From Escherichia phage vB_EcoM_G53: a stretch of 64,000 nt of DNA. Below the pieces are notes generated by a model, which ran no database searches, had not been told where the DNA came from, and saw only the letters and a list, made by a program, of their open reading frames with translations. Positions 2,520 through 33,220 of this stretch are shown piece after piece. Positions within the stretch are counted from its first letter, which is position 1; every line of letters starts with the position of its first letter. The translations under genes and the position numbers were made by a program. Where the stretch lies: sequence record MK327943.1, one strand, 5' to 3'.

Positions 2520-3620
2520 TTACGCTGTGAAGATTTTATCCCACATCGCAACAACTGCATCTCGATTATACTTCTTCCATACTGCTTCAGCACGTTTAAC
2601 TCGAGCTTCGTATGTGTCAGTGAATTCTAATACAGCTTTTGTGTAAAGCGCAACTACTTCTTTCTTAGGAGTAGAGGAATCAATTTCTACACGCACAGTA
2701 TCCGGGTCGTATTCGAATGTCGCATGAGGATAATCCTTAAAAACTAACTGGATTACAGGGACACCTTTAGAGATGGCTTCAATAGAACTATTCTCTACCG
2801 TACCTGTGTCAGGACACGTATTAATAAGTGCTTTAGCCGTTTTAAGACGTTCCATGATTTCACTGTGTGGAGCATCAATAATAACAGGATATTTAGCTGG
2901 TGGTGCCCATTTGCTTGGACAGTATCCTGCACCATTTTCGCCTAGTGCTTTAATCGCTTCAAGAGCAACATCAGTACGACGCATTTTAGTGTCATAACGT
3001 TGTGCACTAATAATCAAATCCGTCGCCGGAAGAACTTCAGGTTTCTCATTCAAACAAATAACCGGATAATCTTCGGCTTCAAACAACGGATTTGCTCGCC
3101 AATAATCATAATCAATTTTGTCAGTCAGACCTGAAGTCATATAACAATATTTGCGTTCAAATTCACGGAAGGCTTTAGTAGGAGCATAACTCTTACCACC
3201 ATTCTTATGAATTTGAATAGTCTGGTCCCAAATTTGAACAATGCCACGAGATACCGGTTCAAATGGTGTTGCCATAAAATTCTTATGAACTTTAGAGAGA
3301 CCTGCGTCTTTAATTGCCTGAACGGTTAGTTTAGTCGGTTCCATAGTAACAACAAAATCGTATTCATGGATGCCGGCTAGTTCAACAATCTTACGAGCCA
3401 TAGTATAACTCATACCTAGACTGAATTTTGTCAGATGACCAACAGGATGATGATTAACCTTCCAATCACCAAACGTGTCATTGTCAAAACCGATATAATC
3501 AATATCAGCACCGATGGACACAAGATATTTCAACACATTTAAATGTACCGCTTCAAGACCACCTTGTACACGTTCTGGGTTAAATGGGACTGCACGAGAT
3601 GGGATAAACATAACTTTCAT
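2520..3620 (-). CDS. GT-B fold glycosyltransferase, candidate DNA 5-hmC glycosyl(arabinosyl)transferase
   Basis: 366-aa ORF; C-terminal GT4-like E-x7-EA-x3-G-x-PVI signature (TGTVENSSIEAISKGVPVI); sits where T4 carries gene 60/mobA. Confidence 0.55.
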   Translation of the reverse strand: MKVMFIPSRAVPFNPERVQGGLEAVHLNVLKYLVSIGADIDYIGFDNDTFGDWKVNHHPVGHLTKFSLGMSYTMARKIVELAGIHEYDFVVTMEPTKLTVQAIKDAGLSKVHKNFMATPFEPVSRGIVQIWDQTIQIHKNGGKSYAPTKAFREFERKYCYMTSGLTDKIDYDYWRANPLFEAEDYPVICLNEKPEVLPATDLIISAQRYDTKMRRTDVALEAIKALGENGAGYCPSKWAPPAKYPVIIDAPHSEIMERLKTAKALINTCPDTGTVENSSIEAISKGVPVIQLVFKDYPHATFEYDPDTVRVEIDSSTPKKEVVALYTKAVLEFTDTYEARVKRAEAVWKKYNRDAVVAMWDKIFTA

Positions 3621-18880: not shown

Positions 18881-19129
18881 TTATTCTTTTTCGCGAATAA
18901 TAATTACTTGTTGAGGCTGCTGAGCTGATTTCTTTTCGGCAACGATAGACCAAATTAAAGTTCCAATCCAACCAACCATCGTCCAGTTAAAGAGTAAAGA
19001 TACAAAGAAGATTGCTGTTGTGCTTTTTGTGCCACGAATAAGTGCGATTACCCAAGGCAACATGTAAATGATGATTGAACCAATACCTGCGATTAAAACT
19101 GCTACTGAACTAGCTACGAATAATTCCAT
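18881..19129 (-). CDS. superinfection-immunity family membrane protein (Imm-like)
   Basis: 82-aa two-TM ORF with LPWVIALIRG and LLFNWTMVGWIGTLIW motifs typical of the Imm_superinfect family. Confidence 0.5.
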   Translation of the reverse strand: MELFVASSVAVLIAGIGSIIIYMLPWVIALIRGTKSTTAIFFVSLLFNWTMVGWIGTLIWSIVAEKKSAQQPQQVIIIREKE

Positions 19130-19190
19130 GTTAATTTCCTCTTGATTTGTTATGTTTATAGTATCTTGTTTTAACTTTGGTGTAAACCAA

Positions 19191-19559
19191 TTAATTAAAT
19201 TTGTTTAAACGTTCAATACACTGGACGTAGTTATTCGCGATTTGTTTCTGGGTAGGCTCTTTACCAGTTGTTTCAACATAGCGAATGAATGCGATTTCAG
19301 TAGCCTGTAGACAATGTTCTTTAACGCGTTGTTCTTTTGACAATGCTACGGTATCAGAGTCACGATAACGTTGAGCATGGGCATCAGCTTGAATCATTCG
19401 ATTACCTACAGTAACCGGGTCTTCCACTTCAACTTTAGGTTGGTCGTACTGTTTAACATTCGGATTGTAAATCAATTGGCCGACGTTATTAGGGATAAAG
19501 CCATGGGCACCACATCCGGTTAATCCAAATACCATTGCTAAAGCGATTAATTTTTTCAT
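19191..19559 (-). CDS. lipoprotein
   Basis: 122-aa ORF; signal peptide with lipobox LTGC. Confidence 0.5.
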   Translation of the reverse strand: MKKLIALAMVFGLTGCGAHGFIPNNVGQLIYNPNVKQYDQPKVEVEDPVTVGNRMIQADAHAQRYRDSDTVALSKEQRVKEHCLQATEIAFIRYVETTGKEPTQKQIANNYVQCIERLNKFN

Positions 19560-22309: not shown

Positions 22310-22651
22310 TTAAAAGAATTTAAATTTTTTCTTGGTTCGTTCATTAAAAGCTTGTTGTACTTGCATTGTAACACATTTTTCAACGTGTGGTGCAAGTTCT
22401 GCTTTTCTGTCCTGGTCAAGAACTGCAAAGTCCATTACGATTTTACCATCAACCCAGTCTAGTTTTGTAATATAGACTATATGATGGGAACCGTCTTCAA
22501 GTGTAATCAGAATCTCTTGAATGACATTTTCCATTGCTGAACGGACAATTTTAAGAGATTCATTAAACACTCGTTCTTTGCGAATGTCCTCCCCTTCCGA
22601 AGAAGGGGATTCATCAACGATTTCTAGATTTAAATCATCGAGATTATTCAT
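22310..22651 (-). CDS. gp40-like protein (position-based)
   Basis: ORF between 41 and uvsX, as gene 40 in T4; start placed at the ATG after the uvsX stop. Confidence 0.4.
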   Translation of the reverse strand: MNNLDDLNLEIVDESPSSEGEDIRKERVFNESLKIVRSAMENVIQEILITLEDGSHHIVYITKLDWVDGKIVMDFAVLDQDRKAELAPHVEKCVTMQVQQAFNERTKKKFKFF

Positions 22652-23816
22652 CGAAATCTTCCATTTCGTCAAGGTCGTTTTCTATATCTGCTGCAGATGG
22701 AGCATCAGAAGTTTTAACCGGAACTTTAGTTGTTGCTTTGCAATTAATAAGGTCGTTAACAGCGTCATCAACTTCTTTAATAGAAGAGATAGCACCTAGT
22801 TTATATTTAGTTTCAATTGCATCTCGGAAAGGTTTGTGTTTAAACAAAGGTCCCCAGAATTCTACACAATCAGTAGCTTTAGCACGCCATGATTTTTCTT
22901 CACGAATCATTTCACCTGTTTCTTCGTCAAGGAATTCGCGAGCATACCAACCGGCTTTAGGCTTAACTACAAAACCAATTTCAGTTGCCATTTCTAACAA
23001 GCCACTGAATGGGTCAATACCGCCATCAAAATTAACCGTGATCGGGAAAGTAGATTTCTCTTTAACTGTGCGAGATTTTTCTGCTTTCAACGTGAAGTCA
23101 TAACCGGTCAATTCTGTACCTTCTTTAACCTGACGTTTAGAGATAAAAAACACTGTGTTGGCAGAATAAAGAATACCTGTACCACCGCCCATAATCTCTT
23201 TAGGATACAATCCACCGATTTCCATTGCTGTATGGTTGATTGCAACACATGGAATATCTTTAATAGTCAGATAAGGAGTCACAATGCGGAACAAAGATTT
23301 AAGTGCCTTAGCACGAGACATATCACCTACAACTTTCTCGTTCAACGCATCTTCGGTTTCTTTCTTAGATGCAGTATTACCAATCGAGTCAATAAAGATA
23401 ATAACTTTATCACCACGTTCAATCGCGTCAAGCTGATTAGTCATATCAACTTTAAGTTGTTCGACAGATTGAATCGGAGTATGAACTACACGGTCTAAAT
23501 CAACACCCATCGAACGGAAGTAAGATTCTGAAGCACCGAATTCTGAGTCATAAAACAAACAGATTGCATCTTTATATTTCTTCATATATGCTGCAACCAT
23601 GGTCAGCCCAAACAATGTTTTAAAGTGTTTAGAAGGAGCAGCAAAAATAGTTAAGCCTGATTGCAACCCGGCATTCAGTGCACCACCTAGTGCAATATTC
23701 AACATCGGAATACGAGTAGGGACTTCATCACGATTATTAAACAGCTTAGACTTAGTCAAGTCTGCAGTCATTTTAGAAGTAGAAGCTTTAATCAGACGAG
23801 ATTTTAAATCAGACAT
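22644..23816 (-). CDS. uvsX: UvsX recombinase (RecA-like)
   Basis: 390-aa ORF; N-terminus MSDLKSRLIKASTSK and RecA core match T4 UvsX as I recall it. Confidence 0.9.
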   Translation of the reverse strand: MSDLKSRLIKASTSKMTADLTKSKLFNNRDEVPTRIPMLNIALGGALNAGLQSGLTIFAAPSKHFKTLFGLTMVAAYMKKYKDAICLFYDSEFGASESYFRSMGVDLDRVVHTPIQSVEQLKVDMTNQLDAIERGDKVIIFIDSIGNTASKKETEDALNEKVVGDMSRAKALKSLFRIVTPYLTIKDIPCVAINHTAMEIGGLYPKEIMGGGTGILYSANTVFFISKRQVKEGTELTGYDFTLKAEKSRTVKEKSTFPITVNFDGGIDPFSGLLEMATEIGFVVKPKAGWYAREFLDEETGEMIREEKSWRAKATDCVEFWGPLFKHKPFRDAIETKYKLGAISSIKEVDDAVNDLINCKATTKVPVKTSDAPSAADIENDLDEMEDFDE

Positions 23817-23914: not shown

Positions 23915-24463
23915 TTAACGAGCCCATTTGATAATTTCTGTAATCAAATAATTACGTTCGCTTGCATTAAATCCTATAACTTTGTTAGCACCATCATGAT
24001 TAAGTAATTGATACGTTTGGATTTTGTTATGAATTGCAAACTCTTCAAAATGTGAAATGACTGTATTAAAACCGAATGAAGACAAAGTAATAAGGTCGTC
24101 TTCAAAACTTTCAGTCATTTCGTTACGTGTTAAAATAATTGTGAACACATCATGGTTTTGGCAAAGACGAACATAATCCTGTTCATAAACGTCAAGAACC
24201 GAGTCCGCATCTTGTCGAATACGTCCATAAACCCAGTTACTAATATATCCACGGTCTAACAGATAAATCTTAGTAGGGTCTAAATAATTCAACATCGTTT
24301 CGAAACAACCAACTTCATTTCGAGACTTAACATCGAATCGTCCATCAACTGTTCGTTTAGGGAAATCAATTTTTACATATCTTTCACTAATTTCCATTAT
24401 GTCATTAATGAAAGTTGTTTTACCAGCATTATCCGGGCCATCTACTAAAATAATTTTAGCCAT
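23915..24463 (-). CDS. P-loop nucleotide/nucleoside kinase-like protein
   Basis: 182-aa ORF; Walker A GPDNAGKTT near the N-terminus; sits where T4 carries beta-gt. Confidence 0.45.
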   Translation of the reverse strand: MAKIILVDGPDNAGKTTFINDIMEISERYVKIDFPKRTVDGRFDVKSRNEVGCFETMLNYLDPTKIYLLDRGYISNWVYGRIRQDADSVLDVYEQDYVRLCQNHDVFTIILTRNEMTESFEDDLITLSSFGFNTVISHFEEFAIHNKIQTYQLLNHDGANKVIGFNASERNYLITEIIKWAR

Positions 24464-24464
24464 T

Positions 24465-25364
24465 TTATTCCTCGATTACGACATCTTCATATTTAGGTAT
24501 ATTATACGGTGAAGAAATTAAAGCATTAAAGTAGATGAACTCACCAAGACCTGGATGAAATACTTCTTCAGGATTTTCGAAATATTGAATCTTCGGACGT
24601 CCTTTAAGAATTTGATAGTACTCAGTTTTAGTTGGTTTAAAAATTCGAATCAACGCTTCTTCAGGATACTTATTTCTGTCGAAGCTATTATTTGGATCGG
24701 TTATATAAAGCGGTTGACCTAATTGAATTGCACATTCAACCACTTGTTCAAAACGATAGCATGGGTCACTAATTCGAAATGGATGAAAAATACCATCTAG
24801 ATAAATAGGAGCCAAATCACCTACAAGACGCTGCATGATGGAAGGACGTATAACTTTCTGCGTTACGATAATCTTATTACCATCTGCACCTGCGTTAACC
24901 AGCACTTCTTTTTGACGTTCATTCAACACAGTAGTTTGAAGTGAACGATTAACCGACAACATGTCGGTTTTTAAGAATTCGTCAATATAAAAACGTGGTT
25001 TATTAGGGTCTGCAGTGATATTGAAATTGAATTCCACATCAAAAGCGCCGTCATATCCAGTGATATCTGTGATTAGAAAATCACAATCATAATAAGCAAT
25101 TAATGAATCAACCACAAATTCATTTTCAGACCAGAAATATTTACGAGTGTTATACGCGTTATCTTTATACCATAATGGAACAAACTTAAATTCTGGAAAA
25201 AGACGTTCGCATTCTTTAATATCAGATGCATTACGTGGATATGTAATCACATCACCCGGATTAGCACGGTGCAAATGAAGTTGGAAGTTGCCATCCTTAA
25301 GGATAGCATACTGTCCAGTTTCATAAGACCGCATACTCAAGATAGGTACGCGGAAAATAGCCAT
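24465..25364 (-). CDS. hypothetical protein (in the T4 beta-gt locus)
   Basis: 299-aa ORF tightly packed between the P-loop kinase and the gp42-like gene. Confidence 0.45.
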   Translation of the reverse strand: MAIFRVPILSMRSYETGQYAILKDGNFQLHLHRANPGDVITYPRNASDIKECERLFPEFKFVPLWYKDNAYNTRKYFWSENEFVVDSLIAYYDCDFLITDITGYDGAFDVEFNFNITADPNKPRFYIDEFLKTDMLSVNRSLQTTVLNERQKEVLVNAGADGNKIIVTQKVIRPSIMQRLVGDLAPIYLDGIFHPFRISDPCYRFEQVVECAIQLGQPLYITDPNNSFDRNKYPEEALIRIFKPTKTEYYQILKGRPKIQYFENPEEVFHPGLGEFIYFNALISSPYNIPKYEDVVIEE

Positions 25365-26080
25365 TAGTCAAGGAATCCTTTAACATAATCAAAATCACGT
25401 TCAAACACATGGGCACTTACCATGGTATGAGTATAATCACCAACTTCTACACCACATTCGTTAGCGATATAATGGAGTAATTTTCCTTGGAGATAAAAAT
25501 CCAACTGCATAACAACAGCACAGTTCTGAGAACGCATATGACAGTGGGTATAAAGTTTACCATCACGAATATAATAAGTCACTGAGTCAGTACATGGATA
25601 TTCAAGCGTTTCGTCTGAATCAAGCAAAGCCTGATCAGAACTTTCTAGAATTTGGAACACAACTCTTCGGGAGTTAGGCTTCTCTTTAAGTTCTTTTAGA
25701 AGAGCTGGTAATTGGGCCGCAATGCGAGGACCATAGAAAGTGTTGAAGTTCGCAGGCAAAACATCTGATTTTGGTTTAGAAATAAATTTAGCGACATTAG
25801 GATATGCCTTAAACGCTTCTTCCGCATCAGTACCACCAGAAATCATAAACTTCCAGAAGTCTTCGGCATATTCATAAGAGATGCGGTTAATACGTGGGTC
25901 GGTCATTTTGAATGATGATGGGGTGTCAACAACTACTGTCATAGACCCAATTTCATTACAACGTCCAATACGAGAATCAGTTACGAATTCCGGGTTTTCT
26001 AAAATTTCACGATTGACTGCTTTAAATGCGGCTTGAAAATCTGCGGCTTTGATATATTTCATTGTGTTATGTTTTCCCAT
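25364..26080 (-). CDS. 42: dCMP hydroxymethylase-like (thymidylate synthase superfamily), gp42
   Basis: 238-aa ORF; active-site region PCTDSVTYYIRDGKLYTHCHMRSQN aligns with the T4 gp42 MCTNTVQYLIRD...NMRSND region as I recall it. Confidence 0.65.
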   Translation of the reverse strand: MGKHNTMKYIKAADFQAAFKAVNREILENPEFVTDSRIGRCNEIGSMTVVVDTPSSFKMTDPRINRISYEYAEDFWKFMISGGTDAEEAFKAYPNVAKFISKPKSDVLPANFNTFYGPRIAAQLPALLKELKEKPNSRRVVFQILESSDQALLDSDETLEYPCTDSVTYYIRDGKLYTHCHMRSQNCAVVMQLDFYLQGKLLHYIANECGVEVGDYTHTMVSAHVFERDFDYVKGFLD

Positions 26081-26122
26081 GTTTACCTCAATACAATTTA
26101 TTATATACTCAATTCGTAAAGC

Positions 26123-26362
26123 TTATTTGAATTTCTTGGCAATGTTGATATAACGTAAAGCTTCACCATCAATACTTCCAAGAACACTATGAAGAAATGT
26201 ATCAGCGTAGTATTCCAATTGAACAGGTTCTTTAATCACTTTAGCCGCTTTGGTTTCAAAAAGGCCCATCAGGGCCTTTTTAAGAATTTGTTCGTTAGTG
26301 TTCAGTTTCGTAGTCAAAATCTCTTCATTAAGTTGGTGGTTAAAAGTTTTTCTAGAAATCAT
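26123..26362 (-). CDS. small hypothetical protein
   Basis: 79-aa ORF. Confidence 0.4.
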   Translation of the reverse strand: MISRKTFNHQLNEEILTTKLNTNEQILKKALMGLFETKAAKVIKEPVQLEYYADTFLHSVLGSIDGEALRYINIAKKFK

Positions 26363-27531
26363 TCCGGGTACCTCAAAGCGTCATCAGAGTTAGTTATATC
26401 AATAATAGATATAGAGTTTTCTGCTAACCCGTTTTTAGATAATTGACGTTTATAATATCTTTCACAATATGTACACGTCGTCCCGCAGATTTCATTAGCA
26501 CAATCGAAATCTGGATGTCTGAACCACCTTTTTTCTAAAAAGCCATCTAACAAAGAGGTTTCAATATTTACTGTATGTGAAAACTCGGTCTCATTTTCAA
26601 GAGTGAAAATAGTCTCTAAAGGCTTCCACAGTTCTAACAAATTACCTTCAAACTTTTCAGAAGCGTATGCTTCAAGAACTTTCAAAATGTAGTCTGTGCT
26701 ACCTGTACGTCCTGAAACTTTGAATTGAGTGATACCAATATCATTATAAAGTTTCAAATCTTGAGGACGAACAAAACGAGTTCTCAACCAGTTAAATGGG
26801 TCTGTATCACGAGCTTTAATACAGTGCTGCATTGGATAACCGTTTAAGGATTTAGCATCATCAGCTGTAACATCAGTACTATGGAAAATATAGCAAGAGT
26901 CACGATAGCTACAATGTGTTGTATACCCTTTACCAGCATTAGAACAGAACTCATTTACAAGAACTTCAAATATTATATTGTTCTTATTGCAAAACTCTGC
27001 TGCACGCTTCAGGAAAGAAACTGAACGGTTCTTATGAATTCCACAACAGACCTTTTTGATATTATATTGGTCGTGCAAGTATTTGATTTGAGTTACAGCA
27101 TCGACATGTAGAATTGTTGAAACTTCAATCTCAATGTCTTTATTGACTTCACGAACAATTTCCATAACAACAGGGTTAGCGATAGTAATACGCCATACGC
27201 CTATTGACCAAAGATACTGAACATAATCCTGAATAGCTTTCTTCTTCCACTCAACTAGTTCTCTTTTTGAACCAGGATTTATCGTGTTGAGTGTATAGTT
27301 AAAGCAAATACCTAATTCGTTACAACGTTTAACGTAATCTTCTAACATCTTTTTGTCAACGTCAGGAAGCCTAAAATCAGGTCTGGCTGCTACAAAAGCC
27401 ATTTCTCTTGTAGAGCCGTATACTTCATTTATCAAGCTATTAGGATAAGTTTTATTGAGCTCTACGATTTTATCAAGAAGAGCTAAATCAAAATTCGTTC
27501 CGATTTTAAAAGTATTCATTTTTTTTTGCAT
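26359..27531 (-). CDS. Cys-rich enzyme-like protein, possible Fe-S / U32-like fold (tentative)
   Basis: 390-aa ORF with clustered cysteines (CSNAGKGYTTHCSYRDSC; CANEICGTTCTYC); no radical-SAM CxxxCxxC. Confidence 0.3.
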   Translation of the reverse strand: MQKKMNTFKIGTNFDLALLDKIVELNKTYPNSLINEVYGSTREMAFVAARPDFRLPDVDKKMLEDYVKRCNELGICFNYTLNTINPGSKRELVEWKKKAIQDYVQYLWSIGVWRITIANPVVMEIVREVNKDIEIEVSTILHVDAVTQIKYLHDQYNIKKVCCGIHKNRSVSFLKRAAEFCNKNNIIFEVLVNEFCSNAGKGYTTHCSYRDSCYIFHSTDVTADDAKSLNGYPMQHCIKARDTDPFNWLRTRFVRPQDLKLYNDIGITQFKVSGRTGSTDYILKVLEAYASEKFEGNLLELWKPLETIFTLENETEFSHTVNIETSLLDGFLEKRWFRHPDFDCANEICGTTCTYCERYYKRQLSKNGLAENSISIIDITNSDDALRYPE

Positions 27532-27578
27532 CTCACGTTAATTGACGCGATGGTTTTTTGCAGGTCTTACTTAAATTA

Positions 27579-27980
27579 TTATAGATTCGGTTTATATGAT
27601 TTAAATGTTTCGAATTCGCCTTTATTCATAAGAGCTTTGAATTCGTCAGGACGCATAGCTTTGTCGTCGATAATCCAATCATATACTGGTTTATGTGTTA
27701 GCAAATTATGGTACTTCAAACCAATGTTTGCCAAGTTCTGAATCAGACTTGGGAGAATGTCAATTGCTATACGACCAGGACCTACTGACTTCATACCGCG
27801 AGCAGTGTAAAGCGTTATTGTATGCCCTGCATCATACAGGGCATTAATGGCAGACACCATTTCGACGTCTGGTTTGAAGTTCACGTAATCACGATTGTTA
27901 TTCCACTCTGTTATACAATCATCGACATCAAAACAAAGATTAAGCATGTTTTCTACACAGTGCATTAGATTCGTTCCCAT
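27579..27980 (-). CDS. HAD-superfamily phosphatase (small, sugar-phosphate phosphatase-like)
   Basis: 133-aa ORF; HAD motif I FDVDDCI, motif II LYTARG, motif III/IV K...IIDDK. Confidence 0.6.
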   Translation of the reverse strand: MGTNLMHCVENMLNLCFDVDDCITEWNNNRDYVNFKPDVEMVSAINALYDAGHTITLYTARGMKSVGPGRIAIDILPSLIQNLANIGLKYHNLLTHKPVYDWIIDDKAMRPDEFKALMNKGEFETFKSYKPNL

Positions 27981-29650
27981 TGATGAGTGATATCGCCACC
28001 GATTGGACGATAGGAAACACCAGTTTCTTTATCAGTTAGTACCCATTTACCAGGATTTTTTGTAATCAGAGTAGCCGTTACAGGTTCTGCCACGTCATAA
28101 CTAATAGAGCCGTCTTGAAGTACACGGCCCATGTTACGTAATTGCTTAGTCAGAAGTTCCATACCTTTATAATATGCGGCTACCGCTTTAAGTGGATTAT
28201 TCTTGAAATAACCACCTAATGCAATCCAGATAATTGCCACTGCCAAATGATGATACTCGTTAAACGAACTCATCTTTCCATATTTGTAAACTAATGGATT
28301 GATGTTAATAGTCACATTACAAGTTGTTTCATCAATAGTAAACTGCCCCCAGGTCGGATTAGCGTTGAATTCATCATAACCTGAAACAGCATAAAGCACT
28401 TTAGCTTCATCATACAATTTTGGCCCGTAAATCTTGGTTTCGCCAAAATATCCACGAGGGTCGATAAACTTGACTTCGCCGTTATCAGTAATCATAGTAT
28501 TACTGAAGTTCGGGTCACCGTGAATAACAGAGTACTGTCCCTGAGAACGGTTATGATACCGAATAAGGTGTTCTAAAGCTTGTTTCAGCATTGGCTTCAG
28601 ACGTCCAATCTTAGTGTAGTTCACATGTGTGATTTTACCAAATGAATCAATCAATGGTTGAATGCTTTCACAACGATCAATAACTTTCGTATAGAATTCT
28701 TTAGTGAAATCACGACGAACAGTTTCAGGACTTACAAAATAAGTGTCTGTGCTGAATTTCAGTGCATCTAAAATTGCATCAACAATTTGTGGACGAGCAA
28801 GACTTGATTTGGATTTAATATATTCAAATGCCGGCTTACCTTTAATGCGTTCCATTTCAAAGTTATTTTCATTAACAGAAACTAACTGAGGGACTGAATC
28901 TGATTTCACTTTCAAATACCACGAAATCTCATCTTTCTGAAGAGCTCGGCCCTGTTCGGTTAATGCGAATTTAGTTACAGTTTCTTCACCAATTTCAACT
29001 GCATTAAAACTACGATTAAGTTCACGAACTTCATGAGCTTTTTCAAGTTTAGGCATATCACCTAAATCAATTAGATTCATAAGCTCTGATTTATTGAATG
29101 CGCTGCCGTAAAGGAATTCTACGAAATCACGTCCTTTGCAGTATTCATGAATTTCCTCATCAGTAGAACCCATATAGAATTCCCAGTCTTTGAACTGATA
29201 AATTCCTACAACATTACCACCTGTTGAACCTACGTTAGTGATATTTTCACCGTCGAAATTATATCGACATTCGTCACCCTTAACATAGATTGCGTTAACA
29301 TTCCAAGACCATGAACCAAAATCGGGAATAATATCACACCAGTTAACAATTACGTTATGGCCGTCTAAATCTTTGTGTAATTTAGCAAGAGCATAAGCAG
29401 ATCCATACGCTTCATCAACTGTACGAATAGTCACATTGAACCCTTCTTGCTCACAATAAGCTCGAACAGTTTCAGCAAATTTTGAATGAACTACTACAAT
29501 AATTTCATCTGCGCCAAGGTCAGAATAAATTGTATACAAATTGCTCAGAATAGTGTCTTGTTTATAGTTAACAAGCACCTTAGGAATATGATGCGTTATT
29601 GGATACAAACGAGTTGCCAGTCCAGCACCAAGAATAACAGCTTTTTTCAT
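27965..29650 (-). CDS. bifunctional sugar-1-phosphate nucleotidyltransferase (N-term) / sugar kinase (C-term, APH/ChoK-like)
   Basis: 561-aa ORF; N-terminal ILGAGLATRL nucleotidyltransferase motif (LicC/RmlA-like); C-terminal HGDPNFSN...DNGEVKFIDPRGY kinase motifs (LicA/APH-like). Confidence 0.65.
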   Translation of the reverse strand: MKKAVILGAGLATRLYPITHHIPKVLVNYKQDTILSNLYTIYSDLGADEIIVVVHSKFAETVRAYCEQEGFNVTIRTVDEAYGSAYALAKLHKDLDGHNVIVNWCDIIPDFGSWSWNVNAIYVKGDECRYNFDGENITNVGSTGGNVVGIYQFKDWEFYMGSTDEEIHEYCKGRDFVEFLYGSAFNKSELMNLIDLGDMPKLEKAHEVRELNRSFNAVEIGEETVTKFALTEQGRALQKDEISWYLKVKSDSVPQLVSVNENNFEMERIKGKPAFEYIKSKSSLARPQIVDAILDALKFSTDTYFVSPETVRRDFTKEFYTKVIDRCESIQPLIDSFGKITHVNYTKIGRLKPMLKQALEHLIRYHNRSQGQYSVIHGDPNFSNTMITDNGEVKFIDPRGYFGETKIYGPKLYDEAKVLYAVSGYDEFNANPTWGQFTIDETTCNVTININPLVYKYGKMSSFNEYHHLAVAIIWIALGGYFKNNPLKAVAAYYKGMELLTKQLRNMGRVLQDGSISYDVAEPVTATLITKNPGKWVLTDKETGVSYRPIGGDITHQWERI

Positions 29651-29678
29651 GTTGAAGTCCTCATTGGTAAGTAGGAGT

Positions 29679-29704
29679 ATTGTACACTATTCTAGTTAAA
29701 GCAT
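29679..29704 (-). promoter_or_regulatory. middle (MotA-box) promoter candidate for the kinase/nucleotidyltransferase gene
   Basis: minus strand ATGCTTTAA box, 11-nt gap, TACAAT; GAGGA SD before the ATG at 29650. Confidence 0.4.
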
Positions 29705-29836
29705 TCATACTTTGCCTGTAGACCAATCATAATCCATCCAATTACAAGTGTTGGAACCATTACTGGAGCCGTTAAGCTCCAGTAGATAGTCCATGACAAG
29801 CATCAATAGTAAAAGTCCTATTGTTATTGCTTTCAT
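29705..29836 (-). CDS. small hydrophobic peptide (43 aa), not in ORF track
   Basis: ATG overlaps the SIS gene stop as ATGA; MKAITIGLLLLMLVMDYLLEL... Confidence 0.3.
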   Translation of the reverse strand: MKAITIGLLLLMLVMDYLLELNGSSNGSNTCNWMDYDWSTGKV

Positions 29837-30468
29837 TGTTCGCCTCGTAACATGGCACCTAGTGCACCGCCTGGATGGAACTTAAGGAAATCATTAGAGG
29901 TAAATCCACGTTCAGACGAAAGGTTGATAGCAAACGTATCGATAAGCGCTAACAACAATGTAGTGGACATAGTCGGAGCCAGAGAATTCTCATCAACCTC
30001 TACTGCGATGCCTGTACAGAAAGAGTAATCAAAAAGGGCTTCATTTTCTTGTGGAATGTCTGGGTTACAATGCAACAGAATCTGTTTGACGTTCGGTCGA
30101 ATCATTTTAAGATGCTTAGCCACGCCTATCATTTCTTCAGTTTTACCAGAACGACTAATATGAATCAACACATCATTAGGCGCAATGAATCCTGCATCAC
30201 CGTGAGAATAATGCCCAGTGTTCAAGTACATACTCGGGATACCGAGTGAAGCAAATGTCTCAGAAGCTTTAGTTGCAATATTAGCATTCTTACCAACACC
30301 TGTAATAATTACTCGGCTTTCATAATTACTAAGACCCGGGCGTCGAAGAGTTTCTAGAATAGCATTATAACGAGCAGGGTTTTGACTAATTACTTTGGCC
30401 ATAGCGGCCAAAGAAGAAGCTTGTTTTATGATTGCGTCAATAGCGATAGTAATAGGAGTAGTTTTCAT
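29833..30468 (-). CDS. SIS-domain sugar-phosphate isomerase (KdsD/GutQ-type arabinose-5-phosphate isomerase-like, no CBS domains)
   Basis: 211-aa ORF; GVGKNANIATK...HYSHGD...ISRSGKTEE matches KpsF/GutQ SIS motifs. Confidence 0.7.
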   Translation of the reverse strand: MKTTPITIAIDAIIKQASSLAAMAKVISQNPARYNAILETLRRPGLSNYESRVIITGVGKNANIATKASETFASLGIPSMYLNTGHYSHGDAGFIAPNDVLIHISRSGKTEEMIGVAKHLKMIRPNVKQILLHCNPDIPQENEALFDYSFCTGIAVEVDENSLAPTMSTTLLLALIDTFAINLSSERGFTSNDFLKFHPGGALGAMLRGEQ

Positions 30469-30508
30469 ATTTCTCTCATTTAATTAGTTTACCGTCCATG
30501 GCATTATA

Positions 30509-33220
30509 TCAAAAATCGAACATATCGAACAGAGATGCTTTCTTCTCGTAATCGAGTTTCGCTGCTGATGTGAATCCTTCAAGTGGTTTAATAAATGTCT
30601 TCTCAAGGAGAACAGTGTAGTCCATCCAATGAAGTACGTCGTCTTTAATTAAATCTGTGATTTCAGTGCCAGAAGGCCATGCGATACATTTATCACCGAA
30701 TGGGTTTCCTTCACGTAAAGGCAGAACATATACTTTTTCACCTTCTACAACTTGTGGTGCATCAATATTACCTTTGATAGCTCGGTTATATGTCAGAATT
30801 CCACGAATATGGAACGGACATTTAGGACCCGGGAATCCACCTACGTCGTATTTAGCAATGTTATTCGCAGAAGATACCGACGCGATGCTAATATAATTCA
30901 ATTGACGGAATTCTTTTTCAAACTCTTTAAAATATTCTTGTAATGATTCTTCACCTTCTTGAAGCATACGACGAATACATTCTTTAAGAGCTTTCTGTAC
31001 TGCTTTAGGAGTCGAAGATTTCTGAGTCTCTAGACCCATGATTTTGAGTTTAGGCTCAGCGTAACGAGTACCTTCCATATCCCACACGTTTAATGCATAA
31101 CGTTTCTTACCAGTCCAAAATCCGCCAATACCTTTAGAACCAAGCGGAGGCCCAGCGATAGCTTCTCGGTCCATGAACATTAAGTGTTGTTTATTGTTCA
31201 TGTATTCACACATTTCACGGAAACCTCTATCAATAGCAGGTTCCATACGTTCACGAGCAAACTTATCTAAGAAGTCTACCCAATGGTTGGTATCACGGAA
31301 TTTAGATTCACCAACCTTATCGATAATTTTATCAGCAGATACGTAAATAGAGTCTGTATCACCATAAAGAACGAAAGCTTCACCTTCTGTACCACAAACT
31401 TCATTCAGATATTCATTAACTTTACGTTCAATCCACTGTAAAGCCATTTGCCCGAATGTTGTGATTGCAGTAGCATTACGCAAATCATAATAACGGAACC
31501 AAACGTTGCCAAGTGCACCATAAAGTGAGTTGATAAGCAATTTACGGTTAATTTGTGCAGTCATACCTGCAACTTCAGTACGTTGAGCTCTAAACAACAT
31601 TTCATTAAGAGATTTAGCAGACAACTTTTTAATCTTTTCTTTAATCTCGTCAGTGAAGTCAAAACGATAATCAACATCTAATGGTTCGTCAACAGAAAGA
31701 TTAGGATTATGCAATGCCTCTTTAATTATTTCACCATTACGTTGAGCTGCAAGCATATAACCTTTATGTTCTTTACGTTGATTAAAGACCTTAGTGATTT
31801 CAGTTGGAACTACACCATCACGGTCTTTATAATACATCATGCCGTTAGGAGAACAACTGTACACATCTGAAGGACGTTCAGCGATTGCGTTAATATAATC
31901 ATGCAATGGAGCTACTTTAAACGTTCCTGCTATTGTTTCCGGGCTAATATTCACTTGGCGAATAATACTTGGATACAGAGATGTAAGGTCGAAACTCATT
32001 ACATATTTGTATCGATTTGGAATAGGTTCCTTAACAAAAGCGCCGGGATAAGGTTGAACCGGGTGAGAACGACCTTGTGGAATCACCTTGTTCTGCTCTT
32101 TAAGGCTATTAAAAATAATAGCATCCCATGTTTTAATTGGGCTAAACACAGATTGAATCTGTATCTTAGCATAATAACCCATGTCCAAGCTCAAGTTGAT
32201 GAACTGACGCTTAGCATCAATTTGCAATACACGATACACGTCGATAATGTTATAAGAAATATATCGTTGGTGATTGCTTTCACGAAGTTTAGAAATAGGG
32301 CCGTCATATTTCAGTTTACCAACGTTCAATTCAAATTCTGAAATGTAATCCAGAGAATACGACGGTTGATTGGTAAAAGAGAATTTTTTGTAAAGGTCAA
32401 TGTAATCAAGAACAGAGATACCGAACAATGTAATGATTTCACGAGAACCATACATGTTTTCGATAACTTTAACACGAGTTTTACGATGTGGTGATAAACG
32501 TTTCGCAGTAGATTCGCCAAAAATATTCTTGATTCGGTTATACACATATGGAATATCAAATGACTCAACGTTCCATCCAGTCAAAATGACAGGAGTTTTC
32601 TGTTGCCAGAAGTTGAGATATTCCATCAACAATTCTTTTTCGTTATCGAACGGCATATAAATGATTTTATCGATAATTTCAGATGGAACTTCATCACCGC
32701 CTTGTTCTTGAAGCTTAGCAGCGATTTCAATAGACCATTCTTCTACATTACCATATGGAGAATTCAATAGATCAAATACGTAGAACCTGTCGTCAATTGA
32801 GTCATAATGGGTGATAGCATCAATCGGATGTTTTGCTTGTGACGGCTCAGGGAACCCATCCGGAGATGTTACTTCGATGTCGAAGTTAGCCACACGAATT
32901 TTTGTATGGTCGTATTTGATTTCATAGTTATAAGTGTCAGACAAATACGCCAATTTGAAATCGTCCATGCCAAGTGCTTCAAGTCCGATATCTTCCATGC
33001 GTTTAATCCATTGGGAGGCATCACGCATATTAGCGAACAACTTACGAGTACACGGCTTACCGTAGATATCGAAATATTTCGTAGCCTGACTTTCTGGACA
33101 ATGAGCAAACAGTGATGGTTTATATTCTACTTCACGAGTACGTTCACGGCCATTAGAATCGATGTAACGTTCAAAAATTGAATCACCAATCTGTTCAACC
33201 GTTAAGTAAAATTCTTTCAT
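30509..33220 (-). CDS. 43: DNA polymerase gp43 (family B, with 3'-5' exonuclease)
   Basis: 903-aa ORF; Exo I FDIEV, pol motifs DxxSLYPS, KxxxNSxYG, YGDTDS; N-terminus MKEFYLTVEQIGDSIFERYIDSNGRERTREVEYKPSLFAH matches the RB69 polymerase sequence from memory. Confidence 0.95.
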   Translation of the reverse strand: MKEFYLTVEQIGDSIFERYIDSNGRERTREVEYKPSLFAHCPESQATKYFDIYGKPCTRKLFANMRDASQWIKRMEDIGLEALGMDDFKLAYLSDTYNYEIKYDHTKIRVANFDIEVTSPDGFPEPSQAKHPIDAITHYDSIDDRFYVFDLLNSPYGNVEEWSIEIAAKLQEQGGDEVPSEIIDKIIYMPFDNEKELLMEYLNFWQQKTPVILTGWNVESFDIPYVYNRIKNIFGESTAKRLSPHRKTRVKVIENMYGSREIITLFGISVLDYIDLYKKFSFTNQPSYSLDYISEFELNVGKLKYDGPISKLRESNHQRYISYNIIDVYRVLQIDAKRQFINLSLDMGYYAKIQIQSVFSPIKTWDAIIFNSLKEQNKVIPQGRSHPVQPYPGAFVKEPIPNRYKYVMSFDLTSLYPSIIRQVNISPETIAGTFKVAPLHDYINAIAERPSDVYSCSPNGMMYYKDRDGVVPTEITKVFNQRKEHKGYMLAAQRNGEIIKEALHNPNLSVDEPLDVDYRFDFTDEIKEKIKKLSAKSLNEMLFRAQRTEVAGMTAQINRKLLINSLYGALGNVWFRYYDLRNATAITTFGQMALQWIERKVNEYLNEVCGTEGEAFVLYGDTDSIYVSADKIIDKVGESKFRDTNHWVDFLDKFARERMEPAIDRGFREMCEYMNNKQHLMFMDREAIAGPPLGSKGIGGFWTGKKRYALNVWDMEGTRYAEPKLKIMGLETQKSSTPKAVQKALKECIRRMLQEGEESLQEYFKEFEKEFRQLNYISIASVSSANNIAKYDVGGFPGPKCPFHIRGILTYNRAIKGNIDAPQVVEGEKVYVLPLREGNPFGDKCIAWPSGTEITDLIKDDVLHWMDYTVLLEKTFIKPLEGFTSAAKLDYEKKASLFDMFDF

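What the first reader, a model, noticed from the sequence alone, without database searches (positions are those of the whole stretch)
27579..30468. Three-gene sugar-nucleotide biosynthesis module (SIS isomerase, HAD phosphatase, fused kinase/nucleotidyltransferase) at the T4 imm locus
Together these genes could take a host pentose phosphate (ribulose-5-P) to arabinose-5-P (SIS), dephosphorylate it (HAD), re-phosphorylate at C1 (kinase domain) and activate it as NDP-sugar (nucleotidyltransferase domain). That is a complete donor-sugar route for DNA glycosylation, consistent with the arabinosyl-hmC chemistry I recall for RB69-type phages. The order of steps and the nucleotide used are inferred, not shown.
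Basis: partly seen in the sequence, partly recalled or inferred. Interest (0 to 1): 0.85.

Follow-up and report, generated by a model that had tools for sequence, protein, structure and literature searches.

The report
Known phage UDP-arabinose pathway for DNA

Summary
Three co-directional minus-strand genes lie between the DNA polymerase gene and a thymidylate-synthase-like gene. They encode a single-domain SIS arabinose-5-phosphate isomerase (29833-30468), a fused sugar-1-phosphate nucleotidyltransferase / choline-kinase-like kinase (27965-29650), and a small HAD phosphatase (27579-27965).

The window is a Mosigvirus about 98% identical to RB69. The three proteins are 99%, 97% and 99% identical to those of phage HY126. 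According to a 2026 NAR paper, the HY126 fused enzyme (AfhE) and phosphatase (AfhF) were characterised biochemically.

The module was proposed in 2018 and worked out in 2025-26, so it is already known.
- **Order of steps.** The reported order is Ara5P, then Ara-1,5-bisphosphate (kinase), then Ara-1-P (HAD), then UDP-arabinofuranose. Free arabinose is not an intermediate.
- **Acceptor base.** The acceptor is 5-hydroxycytosine, not hydroxymethylcytosine.

The most interesting item lies just outside the coordinates. An adjacent, very conserved U32-family Fe-S-type protein is followed by a chorismate mutase in related phages. I suggest it is a prephenate-dependent, oxygen-independent cytosine hydroxylase. 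That is untested.

The parts
29833..30468 (-). Single-domain SIS arabinose-5-phosphate isomerase (RB69 gp55 orthologue). It converts ribulose-5-P to arabinose-5-P.
   Evidence: Pfam SIS 1e-10. NCBIfam KpsF/GutQ 2e-32 and KdsD 7e-31. PDB 3etn, 5uqi and 2xhz. Motifs GVGK57-60, HGD89-91, SRSGKT105-110 and HPGGALG198-204. 99% identical to HY126 XAN60481. No CBS pair.
29692..29836 (-). Small transmembrane-protein gene between the isomerase and fused genes. It is frameshifted in this window and read as a 43-aa ORF at 29705-29836.
   Evidence: A 47-aa ORF is conserved in HY126, RB69 and Serratia phage LC53. The window has one extra G near 29792 and diverges after codon 15. Function unknown. It may not belong to the pathway.
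29027..29650 (-). N-terminal domain of the fused enzyme (about residues 1-208): sugar-1-phosphate nucleotidyltransferase, converting Ara-1-P plus UTP to UDP-arabinofuranose.
27965..29026 (-). C-terminal domain of the fused enzyme (about residues 209-561): choline-kinase/APH-like kinase that phosphorylates C1 of arabinose-5-P.
27579..27965 (-). HAD-superfamily phosphatase (RB69 gp51, the AfhF orthologue) that removes the 5-phosphate of arabinose-1,5-bisphosphate. The longest ORF extends to 27980.
   Evidence: PDB 9iqw 9e-87 and 1xpj 5e-10. NCBIfam TIGR01689 4.3e-13. phrog_1238 7e-43. HAD motifs I-IV. 99% identical to HY126 XAN60478.
26359..27531 (-). U32-family TIM-barrel protein with conserved cysteines (RB69 gp50). 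Role not established. It is my candidate for a prephenate-dependent cytosine hydroxylase. It lies outside the reported finding.
26123..26362 (-). 79-aa ORF (RB69 ORF049c) that occupies the slot holding a chorismate mutase in related phages.
   Evidence: Homologues occur only in Mosigvirus. hhalign against the phage chorismate mutases gives probability 0.2%.
25364..26080 (-). Thymidylate-synthase-like 5-hydroxy-dCMP synthase (RB69 gp48 orthologue). It makes the acceptor base.
   Evidence: Pfam Thymidylat_synt 2.4e-15. PDB 9iqc 1.6e-161. 99% identical to RB69 gp48, whose activity is shown in PMC13326640.
24465..25364 (-). Putative first DNA arabinosyltransferase (RB69 gp46:47). It is one intact 299-aa ORF here.
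   Evidence: ORF. 99% identical to HY126. Assigned as a glycosyltransferase by structure in PMC13326640. No Pfam hit.
23915..24463 (-). Thymidylate-kinase-like nucleotide kinase (RB69 gp45).
   Evidence: ORF. Weak TIGR00041 dTMP-kinase hit. Assigned in PMC13326640 Table 1.
2520..3620 (-). Probable second DNA arabinosyltransferase, at the position of RB69 ORF003c between rIIA and gene 39.
   Evidence: 366-aa ORF between rIIA and the topoisomerase gene. The position matches the descriptions. No Pfam hit. Identity to RB69 gp3 was not computed.

Best explanation
The three genes are the sugar-donor branch of the arabinosyl-5-hydroxycytosine DNA modification system of RB69-type (Mosigvirus) phages.

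Proposed steps:
1. The SIS enzyme converts host ribulose-5-phosphate to D-arabinose-5-phosphate.
2. The C-terminal kinase domain of the fused enzyme phosphorylates C1, giving arabinose-1,5-bisphosphate.
3. The HAD phosphatase removes the 5-phosphate, giving arabinofuranose-1-phosphate.
4. The N-terminal nucleotidyltransferase domain couples that to UTP, giving UDP-arabinofuranose.
5. Phage glycosyltransferases (24465-25364 and probably 2520-3620) transfer arabinose onto 5-hydroxycytosine in DNA. That base is made as 5-hydroxy-dCMP by the neighbouring thymidylate-synthase-like enzyme (25364-26080).

Shown here: gene structure, domain families, catalytic motifs, near-identity to the characterised proteins, and co-occurrence across phages. 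Taken from the literature: the reaction order, UDP, the furanose form and the acceptor base. Inferred: that this particular phage behaves like HY126 and RB69.
For: - The window is about 98% identical to RB69 and other Mosigvirus genomes over 25300-30600.
- The three proteins are 99%, 97% and 99% identical to HY126 proteins. PMC13326640 section 27 reports that HY126 AfhE is an Ara5P kinase and UDP-arabinose pyrophosphorylase, and that AfhF is a Mg-dependent phosphatase.
- PDB holds near-identical structures of the HAD protein (9iqw) and of the TS-like enzyme (9iqc, 9ir2, 9iqu).
- The fused gene and the HAD gene co-occur almost exactly in phage genomes: 373 and 375 records, with the same genus counts.
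- Single polypeptides that carry HAD, SIS, nucleotidyltransferase and kinase domains exist elsewhere (P0084, P0088, P0089, P0091, P0092). This is gene-fusion evidence for a single pathway.
- Knock-out of the 54%-identical homologue TH1_060 nearly abolishes propagation of Shewanella phage Thanatos (PMC12838424).
- RB69 and Mosigvirus NP DNA contain mono- and di-arabinosyl-5-hydroxycytosine.
- Overlapping or tightly spaced genes, with no minus-strand terminator in the cluster, fit co-expression.
Against: - I could not read the primary biochemical paper (He et al. 2026) or Mahler et al. 2025. The reaction order, UDP and the AfhE/AfhF assignments rest on a secondary description.
- Table 1 of that secondary paper still lists the alternative order through free arabinose.
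- PMC13390438 says the full pathway and the arabinose precursor are not yet characterised in Mosigvirus NP.
- The isomerase has not been shown to act in any phage. It was found in only 275 phage records, against 373 for the fused gene, and it is missing from the clusters examined in Klebsiella, Proteus and Shewanella phages. It is therefore dispensable.
- Nucleotide specificity cannot be read from the sequence.
Confidence: 0.88

Rival explanations
1. The HAD enzyme first dephosphorylates arabinose-5-P to free arabinose, the kinase domain then phosphorylates C1, and the nucleotidyltransferase activates the product.
For: Table 1 of PMC13326640 still annotates RB69 gp51 as 'dephosphorylates Araf5p to Ara' and the C-terminal domain as 'phosphorylates Ara to Araf1p'. 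Kinases of this fold that act on unphosphorylated substrates are among the structural neighbours, for example choline kinase and glucosamine kinase.
Against: [quoted passage not shown] Those proteins are 97-99% identical to the ones here. That paper also reports a heptose-1,7-bisphosphate 7-phosphatase as an AlphaFold-database match for the DLP3 homologue of the HAD protein, which fits a bisphosphate substrate. A free-pentose intermediate would be open to loss into host metabolism; that last point is my inference.
Confidence: 0.07
2. The module makes a sugar nucleotide for a target other than phage DNA, such as the host envelope through the Kdo pathway or a capsule, or it activates a different pentose.
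For: Arabinose-5-P isomerases normally feed Kdo synthesis. Database names for these genes include 'capsule biosynthesis protein', 'KpsF' and 'GlmU'. The Thanatos homologue sits in a phage reported to carry a deoxypentose.
Against: The region inspected (23.9-33.2 kb) has no KdsA or KdsB-like gene. The genes lie in a block with the 5-hydroxy-dCMP synthase and a DNA glycosyltransferase. Arabinose is the sugar found on the DNA of RB69 and Mosigvirus NP.
Confidence: 0.03

Closest known systems
Arabinosyl-5-hydroxycytosine system of phages HY126 (AfhE, AfhF), RB69 (gp51, gp52:53, gp55) and Acinetobacter phage DLP3 (gp81-83)
   Same: Same genes in the same order, between the DNA polymerase gene and the TS-like hydroxylase gene. 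Identity is 97-99% to HY126 and 99-100% to RB69. As in the corrected RB69 sequence, the fused gene is one 561-aa ORF.
   Different: The differences are small. The kinase N-lobe has a short mosaic patch relative to HY126 at residues 228-265. The small membrane-protein ORF between the isomerase and fused genes is frameshifted. DLP3-type Acinetobacter phages lack the neighbouring U32 gene.
ADP-L-glycero-beta-D-manno-heptose pathway (GmhA, HldE, GmhB)
   Same: The logic is the same: a SIS isomerase, a bifunctional kinase/nucleotidyltransferase, a sugar-1,n-bisphosphate intermediate, and a HAD phosphatase that removes the distal phosphate. This comparison rests on my knowledge of that pathway. It probably explains the recurring misannotation of the HAD gene as 'phosphoheptose isomerase'.
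   Different: The domains are not homologous. From my knowledge, HldE combines a ribokinase-family kinase with a cytidylyltransferase-family transferase. Here the kinase is choline-kinase/APH-like and the transferase is RmlA/MurU-like. No PfkB or CTP_transf_like hit was found. It is an analogue, not a member.
AmgK/MurU and LicA/LicC pairs
   Same: Both pair an APH/choline-kinase-fold kinase with a small RmlA-like nucleotidyltransferase. MurU, LicC and LicA are all among the structural neighbours.
   Different: Those are separate proteins acting on MurNAc or choline, with no bisphosphate intermediate and no phosphatase step. Here the two domains are fused, with the transferase first.
Single-domain arabinose-5-phosphate isomerases (B. 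fragilis 3etn, E. coli CFT073 c3406 5uqi)
   Same: A SIS domain alone, without the CBS pair of KdsD and GutQ. E-values are 2.6e-25 and 4e-23. The GxGK, HGD and HPGGxLG motifs are conserved.
   Different: The gene is phage-encoded and feeds a nucleotide-sugar pathway instead of Kdo synthesis. It scores below NCBIfam's full-length KpsF cut-off because the CBS half is missing.
U32-family prephenate-dependent hydroxylases (RlhA, TrhP, UbiU/UbiV). This applies to the neighbouring gene only.
   Same: The neighbour has a U32 TIM-barrel. Conserved cysteines align with three of the four UbiU cysteines at 169, 176, 193 and 232; C176 is a shown Fe-S ligand, and the other three are ligands from my recollection of Pelosi 2019. 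A chorismate mutase, which makes prephenate, is the next gene in related phages. RlhA makes the same base chemistry, 5-hydroxycytidine.
   Different: It belongs to a distinct subfamily with an extra C-terminal Cx4Cx3Cx2C motif. NCBIfam TrhP and UbiU scores are far below their cut-offs. No activity is known, and this window has no chorismate mutase.

Membership tests
Phage arabinosyl-5-hydroxycytosine system (AfhE/AfhF type) | Orthology of the fused enzyme, phosphatase and isomerase to the HY126 and RB69 proteins | tested here: met
   97%, 99% and 99% identity to HY126 and 99-100% to RB69.
Phage arabinosyl-5-hydroxycytosine system (AfhE/AfhF type) | Linked 5-hydroxy-dCMP synthase (TS homologue) and DNA arabinosyltransferase genes | tested here: met
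   The TS-like gene at 25364-26080 is 99% identical to RB69 gp48 and matches PDB 9iqc at 1.6e-161. A 299-aa glycosyltransferase candidate lies at 24465-25364, and a 366-aa candidate at 2520-3620.
Phage arabinosyl-5-hydroxycytosine system (AfhE/AfhF type) | Enzymatic conversion of Ara5P to UDP-arabinofuranose through Ara-1,5-bisphosphate | not testable with these tools
   Known only from the description of He et al. 2026 in PMC13326640. The primary paper is not held.
Phage arabinosyl-5-hydroxycytosine system (AfhE/AfhF type) | Virion DNA carries arabosyl-5-hydroxycytosine | not testable with these tools
   Shown for RB69, DLP3 and Mosigvirus NP, not for this isolate.
SIS / KpsF-GutQ arabinose-5-phosphate isomerases | SIS domain with the phosphosugar-binding and catalytic motifs | tested here: met
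   Pfam SIS 41.9 bits against a cut-off of 25. GVGK, HGD, SRSGKT and HPGGALG motifs. PDB isomerases at 1e-19 to 1e-25.
SIS / KpsF-GutQ arabinose-5-phosphate isomerases | C-terminal CBS pair (KdsD/GutQ type) | tested here: not met
   The protein is 211 aa. Only model positions 2-153 of 268 match, and 112.9 bits falls below the cut-off of 203.7. It resembles the single-domain isomerases 3etn and 5uqi.
HAD superfamily phosphatases | Motifs I-IV (DxD nucleophile and acid, S/T, K, DD) | tested here: met
   D18-V-D20, T59, K97 and D105-D106 align with 1xpj. No Pfam HAD model hit. TIGR01689 gives 49 bits, below its cut-off of 162.
Sugar-1-phosphate nucleotidyltransferases (Pfam NTP_transferase) | GxGTRL-type loop, conserved Lys, and RmlA/MurU fold | tested here: met
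Choline-kinase / APH-like kinases | HxDxxxxN catalytic loop, Mg-binding Asp, ATP-binding Lys-Glu pair, and bilobal fold | tested here: met
ADP-heptose pathway (GmhA/HldE/GmhB) | PfkB-type kinase and cytidylyltransferase-type adenylyltransferase domains | tested here: not met
   No such Pfam hits and different folds. It works like this pathway but is not a member.
U32 prephenate-dependent hydroxylases (neighbouring gene 26359-27531) | U32 domain with the Fe-S-ligating cysteines | tested here: inconclusive
   Pfam U32 42.2 bits against a cut-off of 22.4. C207, C213 and C237 align with UbiU C169, C176 and C232, but the position of UbiU C193 is Asn here, and C196 is invariant in the subfamily instead.
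U32 prephenate-dependent hydroxylases (neighbouring gene 26359-27531) | Dependence on prephenate and independence from O2 | not testable with these tools
   Only circumstantial. A chorismate mutase gene follows the U32 gene in 54 phage records.

The most novel reading that the evidence does not exclude
The locus may hold two routes to 5-hydroxycytosine. One is the known O2- and flavin-dependent TS-like synthase. The other would be an O2-independent route through the adjacent U32 Fe-S-type protein (26359-27531), using prephenate as the oxygen donor as proposed for RlhA, TrhP and UbiUV. That would let these gut phages modify and replicate their DNA in anaerobic hosts. The sugar-donor module itself would stay as published.
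Probability: 0.3. Interest if true: 0.7.

Novelty: already known. Interest (0 to 1): 0.18.

Why it matters
The pathway supplies the sugar for a DNA hypermodification that shields these phages from restriction enzymes and CRISPR nucleases, and that in turn is a target of type IV restriction. Annotation of this module in public records is poor. Common labels are 'phosphoheptose isomerase', 'GlmU', 'capsule biosynthesis protein' and 'hypothetical', so a correct reading helps genome annotation and the choice of phages for therapy. The finding adds no new biology. The open question nearby is what the highly conserved U32 protein does.

Tried and rejected
- **ORF049c as a chorismate mutase.** I tested whether the 79-aa ORF after the U32 gene (26123-26362) is a diverged chorismate mutase like the gene at that position in Serratia phage LC53. 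BLASTP found nothing, Pfam found nothing, and hhalign gave probability 0.2%. Its homologues occur only in Mosigvirus. Rejected.
- **An imm homologue in the locus.** There is none. imm and imm.1 lie at 18.9-19.6 kb.
- **Pfam for the HAD protein.** No hit. NCBIfam and PDB sequence searches were needed.
- **Solved structures.** PDB sequence searches found no structure of the fused enzyme beyond distant transferases, and none for the U32 protein.
- **Promoter and terminator scan of 23.8-30.7 kb.** Fewer sites than in shuffled sequence, so it was uninformative.
- **Pfam for the two glycosyltransferase candidates.** No hits.
- **Primary papers.** He et al. 2026 and Mahler et al. 2025 are not held. 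A search for 'AfhE/AfhF/HY126' returned only the NAR paper.
- **A strict split of U32 presence by aerobic versus anaerobic host.** Only partly supported. No Acinetobacter phage appears among the U32 matches, against 57 with the fused gene. About 40 Escherichia records also carry the fused gene without the U32 gene; these are probably Dhakavirus such as JS98 and IME08, which I did not check one by one.
Full report
**What is in the sequence**

The window is a T4-like phage of the genus Mosigvirus. The stretch 25300-30600 is 98-99% identical to about 150 Escherichia and Shigella phage genomes, including RB69. The 903-aa ORF at 30509-33220 is the DNA polymerase gene 43.

Downstream of gene 43, all on the minus strand and tightly packed, lie these ORFs:

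| Coordinates | Product |
|---|---|
| 29833-30468 | 211-aa SIS protein |
| 29705-29836 | 43-aa ORF |
| 27965-29650 | 561-aa fused protein |
| 27579-27965 | 128-aa HAD protein (133 aa from the first ATG at 27980) |
| 26359-27531 | 390-aa U32-family protein |
| 26123-26362 | 79-aa ORF |
| 25364-26080 | 238-aa thymidylate-synthase-like protein |
| 24465-25364 | 299-aa protein |
| 23915-24463 | 182-aa kinase-like protein |
| 22644-23816 | uvsX |

**Domain assignments**

*Isomerase.* It matches Pfam SIS above threshold. It also matches the NCBIfam KpsF/GutQ, KdsD and GutQ models and solved arabinose-5-phosphate isomerases. It lacks the CBS pair of KdsD, as do the single-domain isomerases 3etn and 5uqi. 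It keeps the GVGK, HGD, SRSGKT and HPGGALG motifs.

*HAD protein.* It has no Pfam hit. It matches NCBIfam TIGR01689 and the HAD-like structure 1xpj, and it is virtually identical to PDB 9iqw. All four HAD motifs are present. Its probable start codon overlaps the stop of the fused gene by one base, which matches the RB69 and HY126 annotations.

**One pathway**

- The fused gene and the HAD gene occur in 373 and 375 phage records, with the same genus counts.
- Homologues of the fused protein include polypeptides of about 900 aa that carry HAD, SIS, nucleotidyltransferase and kinase domains in one chain. One of them lies on a contig with MutS-HNH and RNA polymerase Rpb2 genes, which looks like a giant virus.
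- The genes sit in one block with the enzyme that makes the acceptor base and with a glycosyltransferase candidate.

The isomerase is less tightly linked. I found it in 275 records. It is absent from the clusters I inspected in Klebsiella phage EK29, Proteus phage Pm5461 and Shewanella phage Thanatos-2. My inference is that the host's own KdsD or GutQ supplies arabinose-5-phosphate there.

**What the literature already says**

- Thomas et al. 2018 found arabinose in RB69 DNA. They showed that ORF053c and ORF052c are a single 561-aa gene, and they proposed that this gene and ORF055c make UDP-arabinose (PMC6024577).
- Lee et al. 2026 showed that the base is arabinosylated 5-hydroxycytosine with an ether link at C5. 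They showed that RB69 gp48 is an O2-using, flavin-binding 5-hydroxy-dCMP synthase. They assigned gp55, gp52:53 and gp51 to NDP-arabinofuranose synthesis (PMC13326640).
- That paper reports, citing He et al. [quoted passage not shown] It reports that AfhF is a Mg-dependent phosphatase acting on the 1,5-bisphosphate.
- HY126 is in the phage collection. Its three proteins are 99%, 97% and 99% identical to those in this window.
- PDB holds near-identical structures of the HAD protein and of the TS-like enzyme.
- A third paper confirms mono- and di-arabinosyl-5-hydroxy-dC in another Mosigvirus and calls the earlier hydroxymethyl assignment erroneous (PMC13390438).
- In Shewanella phage Thanatos, loss of the fused-gene homologue nearly abolishes propagation (PMC12838424).

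The genes, their families and their overall purpose are right. The order of the middle steps is not the reported one: the kinase acts before the phosphatase, through a bisphosphate. The modified base is not hmC. The nucleotide is reported to be UDP.

The pathway runs on the same logic as ADP-heptose synthesis (SIS isomerase, bifunctional kinase/transferase, HAD phosphatase on a bisphosphate), but the kinase and transferase domains are unrelated to those of HldE. That resemblance probably explains the widespread 'phosphoheptose isomerase' label on the HAD gene.

'At the T4 imm locus' is true as a position only. T4 has imm and imm.1 between genes 42 and 43. This phage keeps its imm and imm.1 homologues at 18884-19553.

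**Caveat**

I could not read He et al. 2026 or Mahler et al. 2025. The reaction order and the UDP specificity rest on a secondary account. Table 1 of that account still shows the older order.

**The neighbouring U32 gene (outside the finding)**

Observations that suggest a nucleobase hydroxylase:
1. It is the most conserved protein of the cluster across genera, at 79-86% identity. The DNA polymerase is 69-79% identical and the fused enzyme 42-72%.
2. In 54 phage records from Klebsiella, Serratia, Yersinia, Enterobacter, Proteus, Erwinia, Edwardsiella, Providencia, Morganella, Pectobacterium and Shewanella phages there is a type II chorismate mutase gene. In the three clusters where it directly follows the U32 gene (LC53, EK29, Thanatos-2) it overlaps the U32 stop; in Proteus phage Pm5461 a small ORF lies between them (Pfam CM_2 1.7e-11). 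The pair stays together even where the cluster is rearranged, as in Thanatos-2.
3. U32 proteins RlhA, TrhP and UbiU/UbiV carry out O2-independent hydroxylations that need prephenate, which is the product of chorismate mutase. RlhA makes 5-hydroxycytidine (PMC5727448, PMC10990095, PMC10470549).
4. The conserved cysteines C207, C213 and C237 align with UbiU C169, C176 and C232. C176 is a shown Fe-S ligand. The subfamily also has an invariant C196 and a C-terminal Cx4Cx3Cx2C group.
5. Metagenomic homologues at 36-50% identity lie next to dCMP deaminase, deoxynucleoside kinase, 5'-nucleotidase and nucleoside deoxyribosyltransferase genes, not sugar genes.
6. No Acinetobacter phage appears among the 221 records with the U32 gene, whereas 57 Acinetobacter phages carry the fused gene. 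Acinetobacter is a strict aerobe.

Points against:
- About 40 Escherichia phages, probably Dhakavirus, carry the sugar genes without the U32 gene.
- This window has no chorismate mutase. Its slot holds an unrelated Mosigvirus-only ORF.
- TrhP and UbiU model scores are far below their cut-offs.
- No activity is known for this protein.

My suggestion, at about 30%, is an oxygen-independent route to 5-hydroxycytosine that complements the O2-dependent synthase.

**Scores**

The finding as given is confirmed and correctly interpreted in outline, but it is already known, so interest is low. The U32 and chorismate mutase association is the item I would follow up.

Noticed in passing
window 26359-27531 (-): U32-family protein with conserved Fe-S-type cysteines. 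It is the most conserved protein of the cluster across phage genera (79-86%) and does not appear among matches from Acinetobacter phages. It is a possible prephenate-dependent, O2-independent cytosine hydroxylase. The accessible literature labels it only 'sugar or heterocycle reductase'.
   Followed up: partly
L003:6158-6502, L004:5986-6231, L005:7007-7264, L006:5842-6228: A genuine type II chorismate mutase gene lies after the U32 gene in 54 non-Mosigvirus phage records, usually directly. It keeps most AroQ catalytic residues; that residue comparison rests on my recollection of the E. coli enzyme.
   Followed up: partly
window 26123-26362 (-): A 79-aa ORF sits in the slot where relatives have the chorismate mutase. 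It is found only in Mosigvirus, is truncated in some of them, and is not detectably related to chorismate mutase.
   Followed up: yes
window 29692-29836 (-), extra G near 29792: The small transmembrane-protein gene between the isomerase and fused genes is 47 aa in HY126, RB69 and LC53. Here a single-base insertion frameshifts it after codon 15. This is either a real mutation or a sequencing error.
   Followed up: partly
window 18884-19129 and 19206-19553 (-): Homologues of T4 imm (64% identity) and imm.1 (32%) lie about 8-10 kb from the gene 42/43 interval that holds them in T4.
   Followed up: partly
L013:7001-9781 (P0084); also P0088, P0089, P0091, P0092: Single polypeptides of about 900 aa carry HAD, SIS, nucleotidyltransferase and kinase domains. 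One lies on a contig with MutS-HNH and RNA polymerase Rpb2 genes, which suggests a giant virus. One comes from a eukaryotic transcriptome.
   Followed up: partly
window about 28856-28969 (-), residues 228-265 of the fused protein: Nearly all differences from the HY126 orthologue cluster in one short patch of the kinase N-lobe, including a one-residue indel. It looks like a small recombination mosaic.
   Followed up: no
L004, L005, L006 and phage-wide counts: I found no isomerase gene in the clusters inspected in Klebsiella, Proteus and Shewanella phages. It occurs in 275 phage records, against 373 for the fused gene, so the core of the module is the fused gene plus the HAD gene.
   Followed up: partly
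L003:4352-4990: In Serratia phage LC53 a NUMOD3 homing-endonuclease gene is inserted between the HAD and U32 genes. Some Mosigvirus records also carry a homing endonuclease in this region.
   Followed up: no
hit H248 (Prochlorococcus phage P-SSM2, about 239.3-239.6 kb): A distant HAD homologue (38% identity) in a cyanophage sits next to genes annotated as carbohydrate kinase and nucleotidyltransferase. This may be an analogous sugar-nucleotide module.
   Followed up: no
window 24465-25364 (-): The glycosyltransferase candidate is one intact 299-aa ORF here. The RB69 reference record splits it into ORF046c and ORF047c, which the NAR paper attributes to a sequencing error.
   Followed up: yes
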